64,000 nucleotides of DNA from a virus. Lineage: Duplodnaviria > Heunggongvirae > Uroviricota > Caudoviricetes. The position numbers were made by a program. The stretch lies in the IMG/VR virus record IMGVR_UViG_2563366825_000011, positions 9,000 through 72,999 of that record. One strand, written 5' to 3'. Shown in pieces: positions 44,101 through 56,100 of this stretch (its first letter is position 1; every line of letters starts with the position of its first letter).

Positions 44101-47100
44101 ATAAGCCGAAGCTGGCAGGCTAACTGGCCGAATCTTGCCACGTTCTTCGCTTATCCAACGGACATCCGCAAAGTGATCTATACGACGAATGCCATCGAGT
44201 CGCTAAACAGCGTGATCCGCCATGCGATCAAAAAGCGTAAAGTGTTCCCGACAGACGACTCGGTGAAAAAAGTGGTGTGGCTGGCAATCCAGGCGGCTTC
44301 ACAGAAATGGACGATGCCACTGCGGGACTGGCGTATGGCAATGAGCCGCTTTATTATCGAGTTCGGTGACCGCCTGGACGGCCACTTCTGAGAAAAGGTA
44401 TTTACACAGAATCCTGAACAGGCTCTGGAGCCGGGGAATCGGAATTAAACATCTTCCCTCCCCGGTAAATACAAATAAGGGCTGAACATCATCCCGACTA
44501 CCTCAGATCACCTAATAATATATCAAGATTATTTTGCGCATTAATGCTATTCGCCATTACTGTTGCTGCTTCTGGCAACTTTCCAAGAGCAATAAATATA
44601 TTCTTAAGGCTGATTGGAATTGATGAACCATGCGGATCGCGCCACTCACCGCAAATTCTGTGAGTTTCATCACAAAGCCTGAACGCATCCCAACCTCCAT
44701 ATTGACCAAAAATTATGTCCATTGACTCTATTTCTGCGGGCGATAACTCCCCCAGCTCATCAACAGAAGAAAATGTACGCCACATTTCAACCTTATGATC
44801 CGCTACATCAGATATCCATGATTCCCACGGACTGTACTCGTTTTCACTTCCATCCTTAACCAAAGAATATGTCTGCGATAAAACGGGTCCTTTGTTCATA
44901 GAGAAATAATGATCACCACTAATGGGAAAACCATACAACTCCATTGCTTTGCGGTCAGAGAGATACATCAGCTTAATGAAACGCATAGATCCGCCATGTT
45001 TTTTCAGCAAATACGCTGCCATTTACGCAACTTTTTCTTCATTAAACATAAATCGGCTCTCTGTCTCACATGAAATACTCTTTCTGACTATATGTTAATA
45101 GCTCCGGTTATTACAGGTTAATGTGTGTTTATTTCTTAATCAGCCCCGCACTTCCGTACGGGGCCATTTCTGTTAATCCACTCCCACTTTTTTGTTGTAC
45201 TCGCGGTTAAAGCGATCCACGGCAACCTTCATATCCCGCTCTACCGATTTCACCATCGCCGCCTGCTGCGCCAGACTGAGAGAACTGTCGGCATAAATGG
45301 CATCGCGCTGTTTGCGCAAATCCTTCAGTCTCTTCCGGGTATCCTGCATAAGCCCGTTCATCAACAATTTTCCGTTGTTCTCGTCAATGAACGCCGTTCT
45401 TTCTGCACCGGTCAGACTCTTCAGCTCTGCGTGATACTGCGCAACCTCTGTCATCCGGTCGTACATCTTCTGCTGGTCTGCATACGGCATCACCTCACCC
45501 GAAATTTTCCCCAGGAAGGGCACCTGCTGCTCCGGTATATCAATACCGTTCAGCGATTTCACCGCCGCATCTGTGGTTTTGGAAATGAAGCGCCCTGTCC
45601 CTCCGGAGATATAGTCAATCCAGAATTTCAGCGATTCCGGTGTGATATCCACCGCGCCGGGACGATACTGGCTGCCACCTGAGAACGCATTCAGCCAGGA
45701 TGCAAACGCCTTGTACGCCTCAGGCGTTGAACGTCTGCCCAGTTGGCTGTCCGGTTTCGGTGTGCCAAATGGCATGTTCTCCTGGTAAATCTGCGCCCCC
45801 ATGAAGTTTTCATTCATGGCAAGGTTCGCAAACGGACGCAGAATGGTCGGCGCTGCATTTTTCAGCAATGCCCCGGACAGTGTTTCCGACGTTTCACTGC
45901 CCACAGGACTGAATGCCCCCAGGATACCACCGACAACATTACCGGCAGCACGTGAAGCAGTCAGGTCGCCCGCTGCCACACCTTCAGCAGTATGCCCGAG
46001 CAGGAAGAAAACGTTGTACCCGTAAGGCAGAGGAATACTCCAGTACTCTCCGGCCTTGCCCCCGAACACCGATTTCATAATGACGAGGTTACGCTCTTTC
46101 ACATGAGACGGCACCTTGTCATACCAGTTAACCCCGTCATCATCCTCCCCCGCAACACTGCGGTTAAGCGAGCCAAGCAGATAACCCGCTCCCACAGCTG
46201 CAAGCGCGATTTTCTGCGGTACATTGAGATTCTTCCAGCGAAGGCGCTCCGGTAACGGCCCGTCGCCATTAAGATGTCCGAGCGTTCTCACCAGGTTTGC
46301 GGTCCCCTGAATGCTGGCGTTGGCAAACATATACAGCGAGTTCATCAGCGCTCCCTGCTCACCACGACGGTTAAAGTTCACCGTCATGTTTTTGGCAAGA
46401 GATGCCGCCTGCTGGCGTGACAAACCGGCATCACGGGCGTGTTTATAGGCAGAAAGACGCAGAGCGTTTTCAACCGCGCCGTTGGCATCCTCGACCAGGT
46501 TCAGGAACGAATGCCATGCACCGATACTCTGGCCTTTCCATCCGCCCTTCGCCAGCGACACAAGGCGATCCATTTCCTTCTGCTGGCCTTCAAGGTCACC
46601 CATGTTAAACCAGCCGGTTTTACCTCCATCCTCAACAAACTCTTTCCACACCTTCTGCCACTGCGCACCGTTGCCCGTGAGGGTTTTACCACGCAGACTG
46701 GCGTATACGGCAGACATGGCAGACCGGCTGTCTTTCACCACAGCCAGGGCGGATAAGTTATCCAGCCCTTTCAGTTTACCGTCGCTCCTTCCCTGCTCAG
46801 CCTTCAGGTTCATCACCGCCGTCTGCACGTCACGGATGAAGTTACTGACCAGAAATTCCGGGTTATACGACGTGTTCACCGTTGCCAGGAAACGGTTAAC
46901 TTTCCCCAGCGTACGGATTACGGCGTTACTGGTTTCCGGCCCCATGTTCTTCATCGCACGCATCAGGCGCGGGTCATGGAGTTTGATGTAGTAAGTTTTG
47001 CCGTCCTTTTTGGTGGTGAAGTAGCGATCCGCCATCATTGCCATAGGCACCGGACGTTCAACAACTTCGCGACGGGTTTCGCCGGTTTCCGGATCAACAC

Positions 47101-53100: not shown

Positions 53101-56100
53101 CCGAGGCTTTGGCACCATCACTGACTGCCTTACCGGTTGCTTTCAGACCTTCACCGACAGTATCAGTGACCGCGTTTTTACCTGTTCCATCGGGAATGTT
53201 TTTAATCGCATCTCCAACAGAAGGTGGCGCGCCCAGTTCCTTTTGCGTGGAGGAAGGCGGCATGTAAACATCCGTCATGAAAGACGACAACCCGGCAAGC
53301 GTTTTTACAGGATTATTTACAAATCCATCACCGAGTCCACGGACCATCTCCCCTGTTCCCCGGACGGACTGGGAGAAACCTTTACCCATTGTTGGCAATA
53401 CATCACCGAGGCTGAACGATGTGCTGTGATCAATGGCATTCTGCGGGTTGCTGAAAAAATCCTGCCAGTAATTTTCTCCCGGCTGCTTAATGTTCAGGCT
53501 GCTGCGGTTCTGGTTACCCAATTGCGCTTCAGGGCGCTGCTCATCTGAAAAAGCCATACAGACTCCAGTAAAAAAAAGCCCGACACGATGGTCGGGCGTA
53601 AGTGAACGATATTAACGGGGAGCGCGTTACTGCCGCGTAACTTTACTTCATCCAGCCTCTGATCTCTTCGGCTGATGCAGCAGCGCTATAATTCTTCGCT
53701 TTTTCCTGTTCGGCTTTTTTATCCCGGAGGTGATTCTGGTACCAAATTTCCAGTTCCTTTTCACGCCCCGGTTCCAGCAAGGCTGGCATATTGGCGGCAG
53801 TCGCTTTGACAAACTCCAGTTTGACCGGATCGCCCTCCGCCCAGGTCTGCCCCTTCTGTAAAAGCTGTTCAAATTTCTGTTGCTGAATTTTCTGCTGATA
53901 TTCCGGTAAACCATGCGCAGCTAAAAATTCATCCCTCGCAGCCTGAGCATTACCGCCGTTCTTGATCGCTTCCGCTGCTACCTGGCTGGCTTCTTTCTGA
54001 ATATCTTTCAGAGAAAGCCCCTCCTGCTTCGGCGTGAAATAACCGAAATTTTTCGAAATTTCCGCGAATTTACTGCGATCCCTGACAAGCTCAACAGCCT
54101 TATCAACAGGCACCGCCAGCACGGTTTGATCATCCGGATGTGCACTGCCGTATTCTGTTACAGGTTTATGCGCGGTGGAGCCATCGCTGTATGTGAGATC
54201 AAGGCCAATAAGTACGTACCCTTCCTGCTGCGCCGGTACGATACTGCCAATCCTGGCCTCTTTTATCGTCTTTTTCCCGGTTGAATCGGGCATGCCAATA
54301 CGCTGTTGCAGTTCCGGGGCAAACACACCAGAAAGCGCATCAAGACTTTCCGGGGTATTGAGTGAAGCGATCGCCCTGTCCGGCTTGTCATCAAAGATTT
54401 TTTGCAGGTTGTTCACGGCCTGACCCGCTTTCGCTACATAGCCATCATTCGCCATCAGCCTCAGCGGATTACCCTCTGACAACTGGCCGTAAAGACGCAT
54501 TGCGGCATCCCGATCGCCAGCATCCACAGCCTTTCCAAGCGCCGCCATCACAGGCTGATCGCGCGCCAGCATATCGTTATACTCAAGCCGTCGCTGGTTG
54601 TATTTCTGCATCCGGAGTCGCTGCTGCTCCATACCCAGCGACGCATTCCGGTAATTCTGCGCTGCGGCGTGTTCCCTCTCTTTCAGCGCATATTCACGAT
54701 CGGCATTTTTGACATTAAGATCATATGTACGCTGATCATTTTCCTTTCGATGCTCAAACTGCGACTGCGCAAATTCAAAATCGCGCTCGTTATTTTTCTG
54801 TTGTTGAGCAAGCTGTGCTTCACGCAGACCAAGCTCCTTACGACGGGTCATGGCCTGGTCAACGGTGCTGAATCCGGCAAGTAACCCCTGTGCAAATCCG
54901 CTCATTCACCACTCCTTAAAACAACGAGCCAGCAAGACCACCTATGACAGCACCAATAGCCGCACCGGGGAGACCACCAACGGCAGCGCCCATAGCCGCC
55001 CCCGTACCAATGCCCGTACCGATATTCTGCTTGTTCTGCGCTTTCTGTTGCGCCGCCATCTGCTTGTTAGCAGCCTCAATTTCTTCACGTCGCCTGTCGG
55101 CGTCACTTATTCCCTGTAATGCCTCTCGACGTGACTGATTCGCAATATCCAGTAAACCGTATCCCATATTTCCTCCTTAAGCTGACACCAGTTGTCCGCC
55201 AACACTCAGTTGCTGTCTTGCAGGTGCAGAAGCCCCCGTCAGTATGTTCATCTGACGATCCTGCTCTGCTTCACGGATACCATTTTTCGCGCCAGCAATT
55301 GCCAGGGCATTACGTAACCCCAGCGTATTACTGTTGGGATTATCAGGTCGGTTAACGCCATATCGTGCCATCTGGTTATCCTGCGCCATCTGCGCTGTAC
55401 GGAGACTGGAAGTGGCAAGGCCGCCCACCCGGGCAAGCTGCGCATTCATCAGGCTGTTGTTCTCGCCAAGGTCAGCCAGCCTTGCCACGCGGGGCAAATA
55501 TCTGGTTCGCCAGTCGTCGTATTGTTGGCGTGTCAGCGCTGCTGACGTCTGCCAGTCACCCTGTGGGCGGGCTGCTCCTGAATAACCAGCCCTTGCGAGA
55601 GTTTCGTATTTACCGTACTCCATAATCACAGTCTCCAGTTCTGAGCCTGATGCTGAATGGCATTAGCGCCGGTGCCAGGTGTTTTAGCACCGCCACTTCC
55701 TCCGCTACCGCCAGCCTTATGCATCGCATATGCACCAACCGCACCCAGACCAGCGCCAACAAGAGAGGCTCGCCCCTGCTGTTTCGTAAACGCAGCCTGT
55801 GCGTCCGATTTGGCTTTTGCCAGACTGCTGTCAGCCAGGGAGTTAAAACTCTGTAACGCATCTGCCTTCTGACCGGAACCGAGAGCCGCAACATCCTGTA
55901 GCCCGGCAATATATTTATCTGCCTGCGATACCTGCCCCCGTGTGGTCGTGTCAATCTGCCCGATCACCTGGTCGCTTTGATTTGCATCCATTACTGCATT
56001 AAAACGACCACTGGATGGGTCAACGCCGGACTGAGCAAGATTACCCGCCAGCTCCCTTCGCGCTTCACCAAACTGTTTCTGATACCCAAGATTTGTTGTG

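What the first reader, a model, noticed from the sequence alone, without database searches (positions are those of the whole stretch)
45173..53557. Uninterrupted 2794-codon ORF with two HExxH motifs at the cargo end of prophage 2
An 8.4-kb minus-strand reading frame with no stops starts at ATG 53555-53557 (GGAG 8 nt upstream). The translation is a patchwork: Gly/Ala-rich hydrophobic stretches (for example GVADATIEGAALGAAMGAPFGAVAGY), a long acidic Pro/Gln/Glu-rich low-complexity region, a (VP)5 linker, two separate zincin-type HExxH motifs (HEWFH at 49694-49708 in a context ALAHEWFHSLDNYFG; HEIIHH at 48890-48907), and a ~900-aa C-terminal region with no motif I recognise. It lies downstream of tail-fibre and lom-like genes, where lambdoid phages keep cargo rather than tail assembly genes. 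This architecture fits a polyvalent, possibly virion-packaged and injected, multi-enzyme protein rather than a structural gene; its function is unknown.
Basis: partly seen in the sequence, partly recalled or inferred. Interest (0 to 1): 0.85.

Follow-up and report, generated by a model that had tools for sequence, protein, structure and literature searches.

The report
Giant packaged protein of Stx-type prophage
This 2,794-codon gene is the already-described giant "polyvalent" protein of 933W/phi24B-type short-tailed prophages; its close orthologues are carried in the virion and needed to make infectious particles, so it is real and biologically interesting but not a new discovery.

Summary
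In detail: one intact 2,794-codon minus-strand ORF (45173-53557) with both HExxH motifs at the stated coordinates. It is not an artefact; the gene is intact in 186 phage records and about 423 E. coli genomes.

It is the orthologue (93% identity) of phi24B gp47 and Sp5 ORF80. ORF80 is essential (2016). gp47 is found in purified virions (93.6% coverage, about 11-35 copies) but is absent from the cryo-EM map, so it was proposed as an encapsidated ejection protein (2026 preprint). RefSeq already labels it LPD5/LPD38 domain-containing, and PHROG 616 matches it end to end.

"Cargo rather than structural gene" is wrong.

- HExxH #1 is invariant in 74 of 74 homologues, and the central model gives LF/MtfA/PPEP-type zincin hits.
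- HExxH #2 is a separate conserved domain.
- MuF_C is a predicted RNase (PBECR), not a peptidase.
- It has no DarB or AAA+ features.
- The last ~915 aa form one module with no solved homologue.
- N-terminal domain, HExxH #2 domain and C-terminal module form a frame shared by many giants with different middles.

Mechanism beyond packaging is inferred.

The parts
45173..53557 (-). Giant ORF, 2794 aa plus stop; orthologue of phi24B gp47, Sp5 ORF80/ECs1242 and the 933W giant ORF
   Evidence: ORF. (93% identity to phi24B over full length). (phrog_616 matched 1-2794). (186 phage records, 426 E. coli genomes).
53563..53566 (-). GGAG ribosome-binding site, 5 nt before the ATG
   Evidence: GGAG-N5-ATG is invariant in window, PA2, JNEC-KY204 and phi24B.
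53570..53597 (-). Intrinsic-terminator-like hairpin (GCCCGAC-N6-GTCGGGC plus T8) between the upstream gene and the giant ORF
   Evidence: scan; the stem is kept in PA2 and phi24B through a compensatory A-T to G-C change while the flanking spacer has diverged. Function not tested.
53168..53557 (-). Hypervariable N-terminal leader, aa 1-130
   Evidence: 60-68% of positions identical in all four orthologues. (dS ~1, dN 0.35, dN/dS 0.35).
52238..53170 (-). N-terminal domain (aa ~130-440) with no Pfam family; includes the Gly/Ala-rich hydrophobic stretch
   Evidence: matches lie at the N-terminus of 65 other proteins of 1.5-5.5 kaa; shared with the Vibrio phage D67 giant (E 6e-22); no Pfam hit.
50858..52237 (-). 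Acidic Pro/Gln/Glu-rich low-complexity linker (aa ~441-900), including the (VP)5 run
   Evidence: composition. (aa 851-900 only 44% identical in all four orthologues). (dN/dS 0.18). Peptide coverage of 93.6% in phi24B implies most of it is in the virion.
49958..50857 (-). Leader motif (IxDFG..GA.K) plus LPD5 domain (aa ~901-1200; Pfam LPD5 at 1051-1200)
   Evidence: LPD5, E 3e-45; free-standing LPD5-LPD1 proteins begin with the motif found at window aa ~903.
49238..49957 (-). Zincin-like metallopeptidase domain #1 (aa ~1201-1440) with HEWFH at 49694-49708; Pfam LPD1 (aa 1361-1440) is its C-terminal part
48566..49141 (-). HExxH #2 domain (aa 1473-1664), HEIIHH at 48890-48907; a small conserved zincin-like domain
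   Evidence: HExxH or HExxxH plus a downstream acidic helix in distant homologues; shared with the Vibrio giant (E 2e-25); Bcep22 gp75 and RPZH6 ORF72 have HExxH 130-150 aa before their C-modules; present in 55/65 giants; lowest dN/dS, 0.03-0.055.
48041..48310 (-). MuF_C domain (aa 1750-1839) = PBECR predicted RNase fold
   Evidence: PF18819, E 1e-17. (Iyer 2017 defines MuF-C as PBECR). His1752 and Ser1816 lie where the family's His and Ser/Thr would be, by inspection only.
45176..47920 (-). C-terminal ~915-aa module (aa 1880-2794); Pfam LPD38 covers only aa 2477-2682 (45512-46129)
   Evidence: homologues cover 97-99% of it at 33-58% identity, some stand-alone. AF2 pLDDT 85, pTM 0.81; no solved homologue; it ends Bcep22 gp75, RPZH6 ORF72, Vibrio D67 and MetMV giants; the most conserved motif is at aa 2359-2417.
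53643..54905 (-). Upstream partner gene (420 aa), orthologue of phi24B gp48 and of the essential Sp5 ORF79
   Evidence: 75% identity to gp48. (gp48 in virions, ~18-56 copies, not in the map). (ORF79 essential). (homologous to the gene upstream of the Vibrio D67 giant, E 4e-14).
55177..56282 (-). Two small genes orthologous to phi24B gp50 and gp51, virion proteins not seen in the cryo-EM map
   Evidence: 97% and 95% identity. (virion abundance estimates, structure-based abundance 'ND').

Best explanation
The ORF encodes the giant internal virion protein of a 933W/phi24B-type (Sepvirinae) short-tailed lambdoid prophage.

Shown for close orthologues: the whole ~305-kDa polypeptide is made late and incorporated into virions in roughly 10-35 copies. 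It is not part of the icosahedral shell or the visible tail. Without it, DNA-filled heads form but no infectious, fibre-bearing particles.

Inferred: it sits inside the capsid, possibly reaching into the portal or tail lumen, together with the products of the neighbouring genes (gp48, gp50, gp51 orthologues). It leaves through the tail ahead of or with the DNA.

Inferred from comparative anatomy: three parts form a conserved carrier frame. These are the N-terminal domain (aa ~130-440), the small HExxH #2 domain and the ~915-aa C-terminal module. This frame would serve packaging, tail completion and ejection. The middle is swappable passenger cargo. In this phage the cargo is the LPD5-zincin-LPD1 block, plus a PBECR predicted RNase inserted after HExxH #2.

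The zincin domains most plausibly cut the polyprotein or a host protein after entry. This last step is the least supported.
For: Orthology and synteny: 93% identity to phi24B gp47 over the full length, and the same gene order as PA2, phi24B and the JNEC-KY204 prophage.

Essentiality: Sp5 delta-ORF80 packages DNA normally, has normal-looking heads, binds no anti-tail-fibre antibody and is complemented. A different LPD38 giant, PTXU04_00025, is critical for efficient infection.

Virion presence: gp47 has 10,962 PSMs, 93.63% coverage and 422 peptides. Its counts peak in the top gel slice, above the 80-kDa portal. Estimated copy number is 11-35. It is absent from the map. The Bcep22-type giant JC1 gp69 is also virion-associated by mass spectrometry.

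Conserved frame: the N-terminal domain sits at the N-terminus of 65 giants. 35 of them end flush with the LPD38-type module, 25 end with a second ~950-aa module, and 55 carry the HExxH #2 domain. Cargo differs among them: methyltransferase, DdrB-ParB, pyrophosphatase.

Selection: strongest on HExxH #2 and the C-module.

Position: the giant gene is the last gene of the structural operon in the four cultured-phage lineages whose annotation was read: PA2, Bcep22, RPZH6 and Vibrio D67.
Against: Nothing was measured on this prophage itself; everything functional is transferred from orthologues.

Ejection into the host has not been shown for any family member, and the location inside the capsid is argued only from absence in the map.

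The Sp5 phenotype (no fibre labelling; data not shown in that paper) differs from what I recall for classical ejection-protein mutants, which still assemble tails (own knowledge). It would fit a tail-assembly role equally well.

Copy numbers come from PSM ratios that are accurate only to a factor of 1-3, and the preparation had been stored for six months.

No transmembrane segment and no muralytic domain was found that would explain an envelope-spanning conduit.

No catalytic activity of either HExxH domain or of the PBECR domain has been tested. The gel profile argues against complete processing before packaging.

The two C-module classes are not demonstrably homologous.
Confidence: 0.7

Rival explanations
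1. It is a tail-assembly factor or structural tail component, possibly an AAA+ ATPase driving an energy-requiring step.
For: Delta-ORF80 heads are full of DNA but bind no anti-tail-fibre antibody. The neighbouring essential gene ORF79 has the same phenotype. The phi24B authors note unexplained 'internal tail contents' that constrain the tail tilt in intact particles only.
Against: There is no Walker A or B motif and no ATPase family in Pfam or NCBIfam. The high-resolution tail model (portal, two adaptors, nozzle, needle, fibres) is complete without it. About 19 copies of a 305-kDa protein cannot be hidden in a short tail (inference). A requirement for tail completion is compatible with an internal protein that reaches into the portal or tail channel, so this rival overlaps with the best explanation rather than excluding it.
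Confidence: 0.12
2. It is a dispensable anti-defence effector, a 'DarB-like antirestriction' protein or lambdoid moron cargo, as the PHROG and GenBank labels of relatives and the first reader's 'cargo' reading suggest.
For: phrog_10089 'DarB-like antirestriction' matches aa 2355-2682. Relatives are annotated DarB-like. Polyvalent proteins are proposed counter-defence weapons. The gene is near the prophage end.
Against: There is no similarity to P1 DarB, DdrB or DarA (BLAST E > 1, no profile hits). Bcep22 gp75 matches DarB only through a methylase/helicase region that the window protein lacks. The gene is essential on a K-12 host. The middle domains may still be anti-defence cargo, but that would be one part of the protein, not the whole.
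Confidence: 0.05
3. It is an ejection protein whose metallopeptidase digests peptidoglycan to let a periplasm-spanning conduit form. This is the specific mechanism proposed in the phi24B preprint.
For: It is virion-associated and invisible in the map. Two zincin-like domains exist. Short-tailed phages need some way across the periplasm (established knowledge).
Against: The preprint attributes the peptidase to MuF_C, which is a PBECR predicted RNase fold, not a peptidase. The closest folds to the real zincin domain are protein endopeptidases (MtfA, Pro-Pro endopeptidases, anthrax lethal factor), not cell-wall hydrolases. No lysozyme, transglycosylase, M15 or M23 domain is detected. The same LPD5-zincin-LPD1 block occurs as free-standing proteins and is missing from about two thirds of the related giants, so it cannot be the conserved envelope-crossing device.
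Confidence: 0.1
4. The long ORF is an assembly or annotation artefact that fuses several genes.
For: The size is unusual and the composition is a patchwork. Some records split it (phi24B GenBank lists extra antisense ORFs inside it; RPZH6 has two adjacent ORFs).
Against: It is intact and collinear in 186 phage records and about 423 complete genomes. Purifying selection acts on all segments. Peptides cover 93.6% of the single polypeptide, which runs at the top of the gel.
Confidence: 0.01

Closest known systems
phi24B gp47 (vb_24B_48), Sp5 ORF80 (ECs1242) and the giant ORFs of 933W and PA2: 'LPD5/LPD38 domain-containing protein', phrog_616
   Same: Orthologue: 93% amino-acid identity over the full length, the same domains and the same position after the gp51-gp50-gp49-gp48 block.
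   Different: Allelic differences only. The N-terminal 130 aa are diverged, the window has a (VP)5 linker variant at aa ~880-890, and the PBECR segment is mosaic. In this window the prophage has extra genes between the giant ORF and ynfF instead of an att site directly after the stop.
Bcep22 gp75 / JC1 gp69 and Ralstonia GP4-like 'DarB-like' giants (phrog_10089)
   Same: Giant protein encoded by the last gene of the structural operon in phages with 933W-like portal, capsid and head-closure proteins. JC1 gp69 is virion-associated by mass spectrometry. They share the ~900-aa C-terminal module (26-27% identity, E 1e-63 to 5e-67) preceded by an HExxH motif.
   Different: Nothing else is shared. 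Bcep22 gp75 carries the DarB-type methylase/helicase region, and no similarity to the window protein's N-terminal domain, LPD5-zincin-LPD1 block or PBECR domain was detected by BLAST.
Polyvalent proteins of phages and conjugative elements (Iyer, Burroughs, Anand, de Souza, Aravind 2017)
   Same: Matches the class: several unrelated domains in one polypeptide, zincin MPTase as hub domain, PBECR, LPD domains, phage late-gene context and predicted packaging.
   Different: That paper left LPD5, LPD1 and LPD38 uncharacterised and, in the passages I read, treats such proteins as counter-defence effectors. Here the orthologue is essential, and the 'LPD38' region is part of a much larger ~915-aa unit that behaves as a carrier.
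Coliphage N4 virion RNA polymerase (gp50, 3500 aa)
   Same: A giant protein encapsidated in a short-tailed phage that contains an HExxH MPTase domain. According to Iyer et al. it is packaged unprocessed, and the region holding the MPTase is required for encapsidation.
   Different: No detectable homology: BLAST E > 0.8, no profile hits, hhalign probability below 2%. There is no RNA polymerase domain in the window protein.
Ejection (pilot/internal core) proteins of podoviruses: T7 gp14/15/16, P22 gp7/16/20
   Same: Functional analogy only: a virion protein outside the shell and tail models, required for infectivity, in a short-tailed phage (general properties from established knowledge and the abstract of PMC8954989).
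   Different: No sequence or fold relative was found in the PDB, which includes solved ejection proteins. It is far larger and multi-enzymatic, and its loss appears to prevent fibre or tail attachment, which I recall is not the case for P22 ejection-protein mutants (own knowledge).
P1 DarB (and DdrB, DarA)
   Same: Large head-internal proteins of a phage. DdrB also has a predicted metallopeptidase.
   Different: No similarity at all to the window protein. The 'DarB-like' label reaches this family only through the unrelated middle of Bcep22-type giants.

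Membership tests
933W/phi24B giant ORF family (phrog_616; RefSeq 'LPD5/LPD38 domain-containing protein') | Full-length collinear similarity | tested here: met
   phrog_616 matched 1-2794 against profile 1-2793. 93% identity to phi24B over 2794 aa. 90-99% DNA identity to 186 phage records.
933W/phi24B giant ORF family | Position after the lom-gp51-gp50-gp49-gp48 block at the end of the late operon of a Sepvirinae-type prophage | tested here: met
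Polyvalent proteins (Iyer et al. 2017) | Two or more unrelated domains in one polypeptide, including family-specific LPD domains | tested here: met
   LPD5, LPD1, MuF_C and LPD38 are all above the Pfam gathering scores.
Polyvalent proteins (Iyer et al. 2017) | Encoded with phage packaging or late genes and delivered with the DNA | tested here: inconclusive
   The late-operon context is met and the orthologue is in virions. Delivery into the host has not been shown for any member.
Zincin (gluzincin) metallopeptidase, domain #1 (HEWFH) | HExxH conserved across the family | tested here: met
   H1284, E1285 and H1288 invariant in 74/74 homologues of 33-55% identity.
Zincin (gluzincin) metallopeptidase, domain #1 | Zincin fold: beta-sheet followed by the HExxH helix, with similarity to solved zincins | tested here: met
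Zincin (gluzincin) metallopeptidase, domain #1 | Third zinc ligand (Glu) on a downstream helix, and catalytic activity | not testable with these tools
   Invariant E1375 and E1382 in the LPD1 part are candidates.
Zincin-like MPTase, domain #2 (HEIIHH) | Conserved HExxH or HExxxH with zincin topology | tested here: inconclusive
PBECR / MuF_C predicted RNase | Match to PF18819 above its threshold | tested here: met
   E 1.2e-17, 64.3 bits against a cutoff of 27.6, aa 1750-1839.
PBECR / MuF_C predicted RNase | [quoted passage not shown] | tested here: inconclusive
   His1752 (GVKHVV) and Ser1816 (VASVYG) are present at plausible positions. They were not aligned to the published family alignment, and no structure was predicted for this domain.
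P1 DarB-type antirestriction protein | DarB methyltransferase and helicase domains, or any similarity to DarB | tested here: not met
   BLAST E > 1 and no profile hits against DarB, DdrB or DarA. Bcep22 gp75 does match DarB (E 8e-20 to 5e-16), but in a region absent from the window protein.
AAA+ ATPase (COG1483, claimed in 2016) | Walker A and Walker B motifs, or an ATPase domain hit | tested here: not met
   No Walker A or B pattern. No ATPase family in Pfam or NCBIfam.
N4-type virion RNA polymerase | RNA polymerase module, or homology to gp50 | tested here: not met
   No hits by BLAST, profile search or hhalign; no polymerase domain.
Podovirus ejection proteins (functional class) | Present in the virion, absent from shell and tail, required for infectivity | not testable with these tools
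   Shown in the literature for orthologues, not for this prophage.
Podovirus ejection proteins (functional class) | Released from the virion on DNA ejection and found in or across the host envelope | not tested
   No data for any family member. The preprint did not report protein content of ejected particles in the passages read.

The most novel reading that the evidence does not exclude
The N-terminal domain, the small HExxH #2 peptidase-like domain and a ~900-1000-aa C-terminal module (LPD38-type or an alternative LPD39-type) together form a widespread, previously undescribed encapsidation-and-ejection chassis. Into it phages splice arbitrary enzymes: zincins, RNases, methyltransferases, ParB-like domains, pyrophosphatase. 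The chassis, not the enzymes, is what makes these giants essential, and the HExxH #2 domain next to the C-module releases the cargo by cleavage after entry.
Probability: 0.3. Interest if true: 0.65.

Novelty: already known. Interest (0 to 1): 0.35.

Why it matters
Short-tailed Stx phages spread Shiga toxin genes, and how they cross the E. coli envelope is unresolved. This protein takes up about 14% of the phage genome and, by the preprint's copy estimates, several megadaltons per particle (19 x 305 kDa). Its orthologue is essential and has no solved homologue, so it is the largest unknown in that process.

The frame-plus-cargo anatomy tells experimenters which pieces to truncate to separate packaging and ejection from enzymatic functions. 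It also corrects three labels in circulation: AAA+ ATPase, DarB-like, and MuF-C 'metallopeptidase'.

If the chassis idea holds, it would be a general route by which phages deliver enzymes into cells, and a possible protein-delivery scaffold.

As a scan finding, however, it rediscovers a gene whose family, essentiality and virion location are already published.

Tried and rejected
- **PDB sequence searches.** The whole protein and the profiles A1 and A2 found nothing.
- **Homology between the two HExxH domains.** hhalign probability 2.9%, rejected.
- **Homology to N4 vRNAP.** Rejected.
- **Homology to P1 DarB, DdrB or DarA.** Rejected.
- **AAA+ motifs.** Absent.
- **Transmembrane helices.** None at Kyte-Doolittle 19-residue mean >= 1.6; only a weak peak at aa 180-198.
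- **Upstream partner against Bcep22 gp74.** No significant similarity, although the Vibrio counterpart is homologous.
- **Genomic context of stand-alone C-module proteins P0157 and P0220.** Degraded or contig-end prophages, uninformative.
- **LPD38-type against LPD39-type C-modules.** Not significant, probability 1.5%; only a suggestive local match at the AVENAxRLSAY motif.
- **Testing proteolytic processing from the phi24B supplement.** The peptide sheet has totals only, with no per-slice counts. The predicted N-terminal peptide was not found in the truncated file, so the start codon is supported only by the conserved RBS.
- **Self-correction.** I first thought gp48 had been dismissed as a contaminant; the final abundance sheet shows it was kept as a candidate structural protein.
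- **Word-based search with the N-terminal domain.** It found only enterobacterial relatives; the exhaustive HMMER search was required.

Full report
**Observation.** The window contains one uninterrupted minus-strand ORF, 45173-53557, 2794 aa, starting at ATG. GGAG lies five bases before the ATG. HEWFH is at aa 1284-1288 (49694-49708) and HEIIHH at aa 1551-1556 (48890-48907), exactly as reported. The Gly/Ala-rich stretch, the acidic Pro/Gln/Glu-rich region (aa ~440-900) and the (VP)5 run are present. An Ail/Lom gene (57206-57940) and a tail-tip-fibre gene (58946-60214) lie upstream on the same strand. The ORF is not an assembly artefact. It is intact at 90-99% DNA identity in 186 phage records and in 423 of 5426 complete E. 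coli genomes, annotated as one CDS. Every segment is under purifying selection, with dN/dS 0.03-0.36.

**Identity.** The protein matches phrog_616 end to end and is 93% identical over its full length to phi24B vb_24B_48, called gp47 in a recent preprint. Gene order is the same as in PA2, phi24B and a prophage of E. coli JNEC-KY204: tail-tip fibre, Lom, Hok, three small genes, a bacteriocin-like gene, a 420-aa gene, then the giant gene. These are the short-tailed 933W-like Stx phages (Sepvirinae). RefSeq calls the protein 'LPD5 domain-containing' or 'LPD38 domain-containing'.

**What is already published.**
- Mondal et al. 2016 (PMC5155283) deleted the Sp5 orthologue ORF80 (ECs1242, 2,793 aa). 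The mutants cannot form plaques or lysogens, contain normal amounts of DNase-resistant DNA, show normal-looking heads, bind no antibody against the tail fibre ORF67, and are complemented. The neighbouring ORF79 behaves the same way.
- A bioRxiv preprint of April 2026 (10.64898/2026.04.10.717836) found gp47 in purified phi24B virions but not in the cryo-EM map. It proposed that gp47 is an encapsidated ejection protein.
- The preprint's supplementary table adds numbers. gp47 has 10,962 PSMs, 93.63% coverage and 422 peptides. Counts peak in the topmost gel slice, well above the portal, and the estimate is 11-35 copies per virion.
- gp48, gp50 and gp51 are also in virions and lack a place in the map. 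Their orthologues are the genes directly upstream of the window ORF.
- In the Bcep22-like phage JC1, the giant gp69 is virion-associated by mass spectrometry.
- In phage PTXU04, a 2,198-aa LPD38 protein is critical for efficient infection.
- Iyer et al. 2017 (PMC5512222) defined the domain vocabulary and the concept of polyvalent proteins.

**Domain anatomy.** Pfam finds LPD5 (aa 1051-1200), LPD1 (1361-1440), MuF_C (1750-1839) and LPD38 (2477-2682). HEWFH lies upstream of 'LPD1' but inside a unit of about 240 aa that NCBIfam matches as CLCA_X (E 1.5e-44, below cutoff). In 74 homologues of 33-55% identity, H1284, E1285 and H1288 are invariant, as are H1263, E1265, N1272, D1291, E1375, R1379 and E1382.

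HExxH #2 belongs to a separate small domain (aa 1473-1664). Distant homologues keep it as HExxH or HExxxH with a downstream acidic helix. It has the lowest dN/dS of the protein, 0.03-0.055. Its fold assignment remains inconclusive.

MuF_C is, by its authors' definition, a PBECR domain, a predicted metal-independent RNase fold. The preprint's description of it as a metallopeptidase that digests peptidoglycan is therefore not supported. No muralytic domain was found, and the nearest zincin folds are protein endopeptidases.

The module forms the C-terminus of several other giants: Burkholderia phage Bcep22 gp75 (4,602 aa; E 5e-64), Ralstonia phage RPZH6 ORF72, a 3,066-aa protein of about 100 Vibrio phages (41% identity), and a 3,002-aa protein of the archaeal Methanosarcina virus MetMV. 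In PA2, Bcep22, RPZH6 and Vibrio D67 the giant gene is the last gene of the structural operon.

**A conserved frame with a variable middle.** An exhaustive HMMER search with aa 1-450 found the N-terminal domain (aa ~130-440, no Pfam family) at the N-terminus of 65 proteins of 1.5-5.5 kaa. Of these:
- 35 end within 0-8 residues of their C-terminus with the LPD38-type module.
- 25 end with a second coherent module of about 950 aa that contains LPD39.
- 55 carry the HExxH #2 domain.
- Only about 21 carry the LPD5-zincin-LPD1 block.

The middles differ: methyltransferase plus DdrB-like ParB in one, pyrophosphatase in another. Bcep22 gp75 and RPZH6 ORF72 also have an HExxH motif 130-150 aa before their C-modules. 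In the Vibrio giant the HExxH #2 domain abuts the module directly. In the Stx phages the PBECR domain is inserted between them. I read this as a carrier frame (N-terminal domain, HExxH #2 domain, C-module) plus swappable cargo. That reading is an inference from architecture. The two C-module classes are not demonstrably homologous.

**Labels that fail.**
- The 2016 suggestion of an AAA+ ATPase (COG1483) is not supported. There is no Walker A or B motif and no ATPase family hit.
- 'DarB-like antirestriction' does not apply. The window protein has no similarity to P1 DarB, DdrB or DarA. Bcep22 gp75 resembles DarB only in a methylase/helicase region that the window protein lacks.
- N4 virion RNA polymerase is a functional analogue only.

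**Most likely mechanism.** Shown for orthologues: late expression, incorporation of the whole polypeptide into virions in tens of copies, and a requirement for infectious, fibre-bearing particles. Inferred:
- It resides inside the capsid together with the gp48, gp50 and gp51 orthologues.
- It possibly extends into the portal or tail lumen, which would reconcile the tail-less phenotype with the complete tail model.
- It exits on infection.
- The frame serves packaging and ejection, while the LPD5-zincin-LPD1 block and the PBECR domain act on protein and RNA targets after entry.

Self-processing by the zincins is plausible by analogy. It is not supported for the packaged form, which runs mainly as a very large species.

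**Verdict.** The gene and its family are already known, so novelty is 'already known' and interest is modest. The frame-plus-cargo anatomy, the lack of any solved homologue of the C-module and the corrected labels are the useful additions.

Noticed in passing
window 53570-53597 (-): A canonical intrinsic-terminator-like hairpin (7-bp stem with 6 GC pairs, then T8) sits between the stop of the 420-aa gene and the RBS of the giant ORF. The stem is preserved in PA2 and phi24B by a compensatory A-T to G-C change while the spacer around it has diverged. It may throttle giant-gene expression or stabilise the upstream mRNA.
   Followed up: partly
window 53643-56282 (-): The genes just upstream (420, 150 and 218 aa) are orthologues of phi24B gp48, gp50 and gp51. 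All three were detected in virions at tens of copies but have no place in the cryo-EM model. The gp48 orthologue in Sp5 (ORF79) is essential. Together with the giant gene they look like a contiguous internal-protein module.
   Followed up: partly
window 41231-45022: A SocA/Panacea-domain gene (44498-45022, -), a Mutator-family transposase (43183-44391, +) and an IbrB-like plus PAPS-reductase/DUF3440 pair (41231-43086, +) lie between the giant ORF and ynfF. A PAPS-reductase-like gene also sits next to the giant gene in Bcep22 (gp73) and Ralstonia RPZH6 (ORF75). The recurrence is unexplained.
   Followed up: no
phi24B preprint text against window 48041-48310 (-): The preprint calls MuF_C a metallopeptidase and builds a peptidoglycan-degradation argument on it. 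By the defining paper, MuF-C is a PBECR predicted RNase fold. The real zincin domains lie elsewhere (aa ~1201-1440 and 1473-1664).
   Followed up: yes
L011:2584-11592 (Methanosarcina virus MetMV): An archaeal tailed virus encodes a 3,002-aa protein whose C-terminus matches the window's C-terminal module (28% identity over 91% of the module, E 2e-80). The module therefore crosses the bacteria-archaea boundary.
   Followed up: partly
window 45173-53557, segments aa 1-130 and aa 1665-1839: The gene is mosaic. The first 130 codons are near saturation against both phi24B and PA2 (dS ~1). Codons 1665-1839, including the PBECR domain, are identical to phi24B but strongly diverged from PA2 (dS 0.63). 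This indicates recombination inside the gene.
   Followed up: partly
proteins P0306-P0364, last ~950 aa: A second coherent C-terminal module of about 950 aa, containing Pfam LPD39, replaces the LPD38-type module in 25 giants that share the same N-terminal domain and HExxH #2 domain. Profile comparison of the two classes is not significant, but their most conserved motifs align locally.
   Followed up: partly
window 45512-46129 against 46306-46482 (-): Pfam LPD38 covers only aa 2477-2682. The most conserved motif of the ~915-aa module (aa 2359-2417) lies outside the Pfam boundaries, so the Pfam domain under-describes the unit.
   Followed up: partly
L003 (phi24B GenBank record) 2962-11385: The GenBank annotation starts the giant gene 13 codons upstream of the conserved GGAG-N5-ATG and lists three antisense ORFs inside it. 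The preprint's '2811 aa' is the stop-to-stop frame. The ATG-initiated protein is 2794 aa, as in the window.
   Followed up: partly
window 54916-55167 (-): The 83-aa gene annotated 'bacteriocin' in relatives has a C-terminal glycine-zipper (YMGG-like) match just below the Pfam cutoff. Its phi24B orthologue gp49 gave only 6 batch PSMs and was classed as a contaminant.
   Followed up: no
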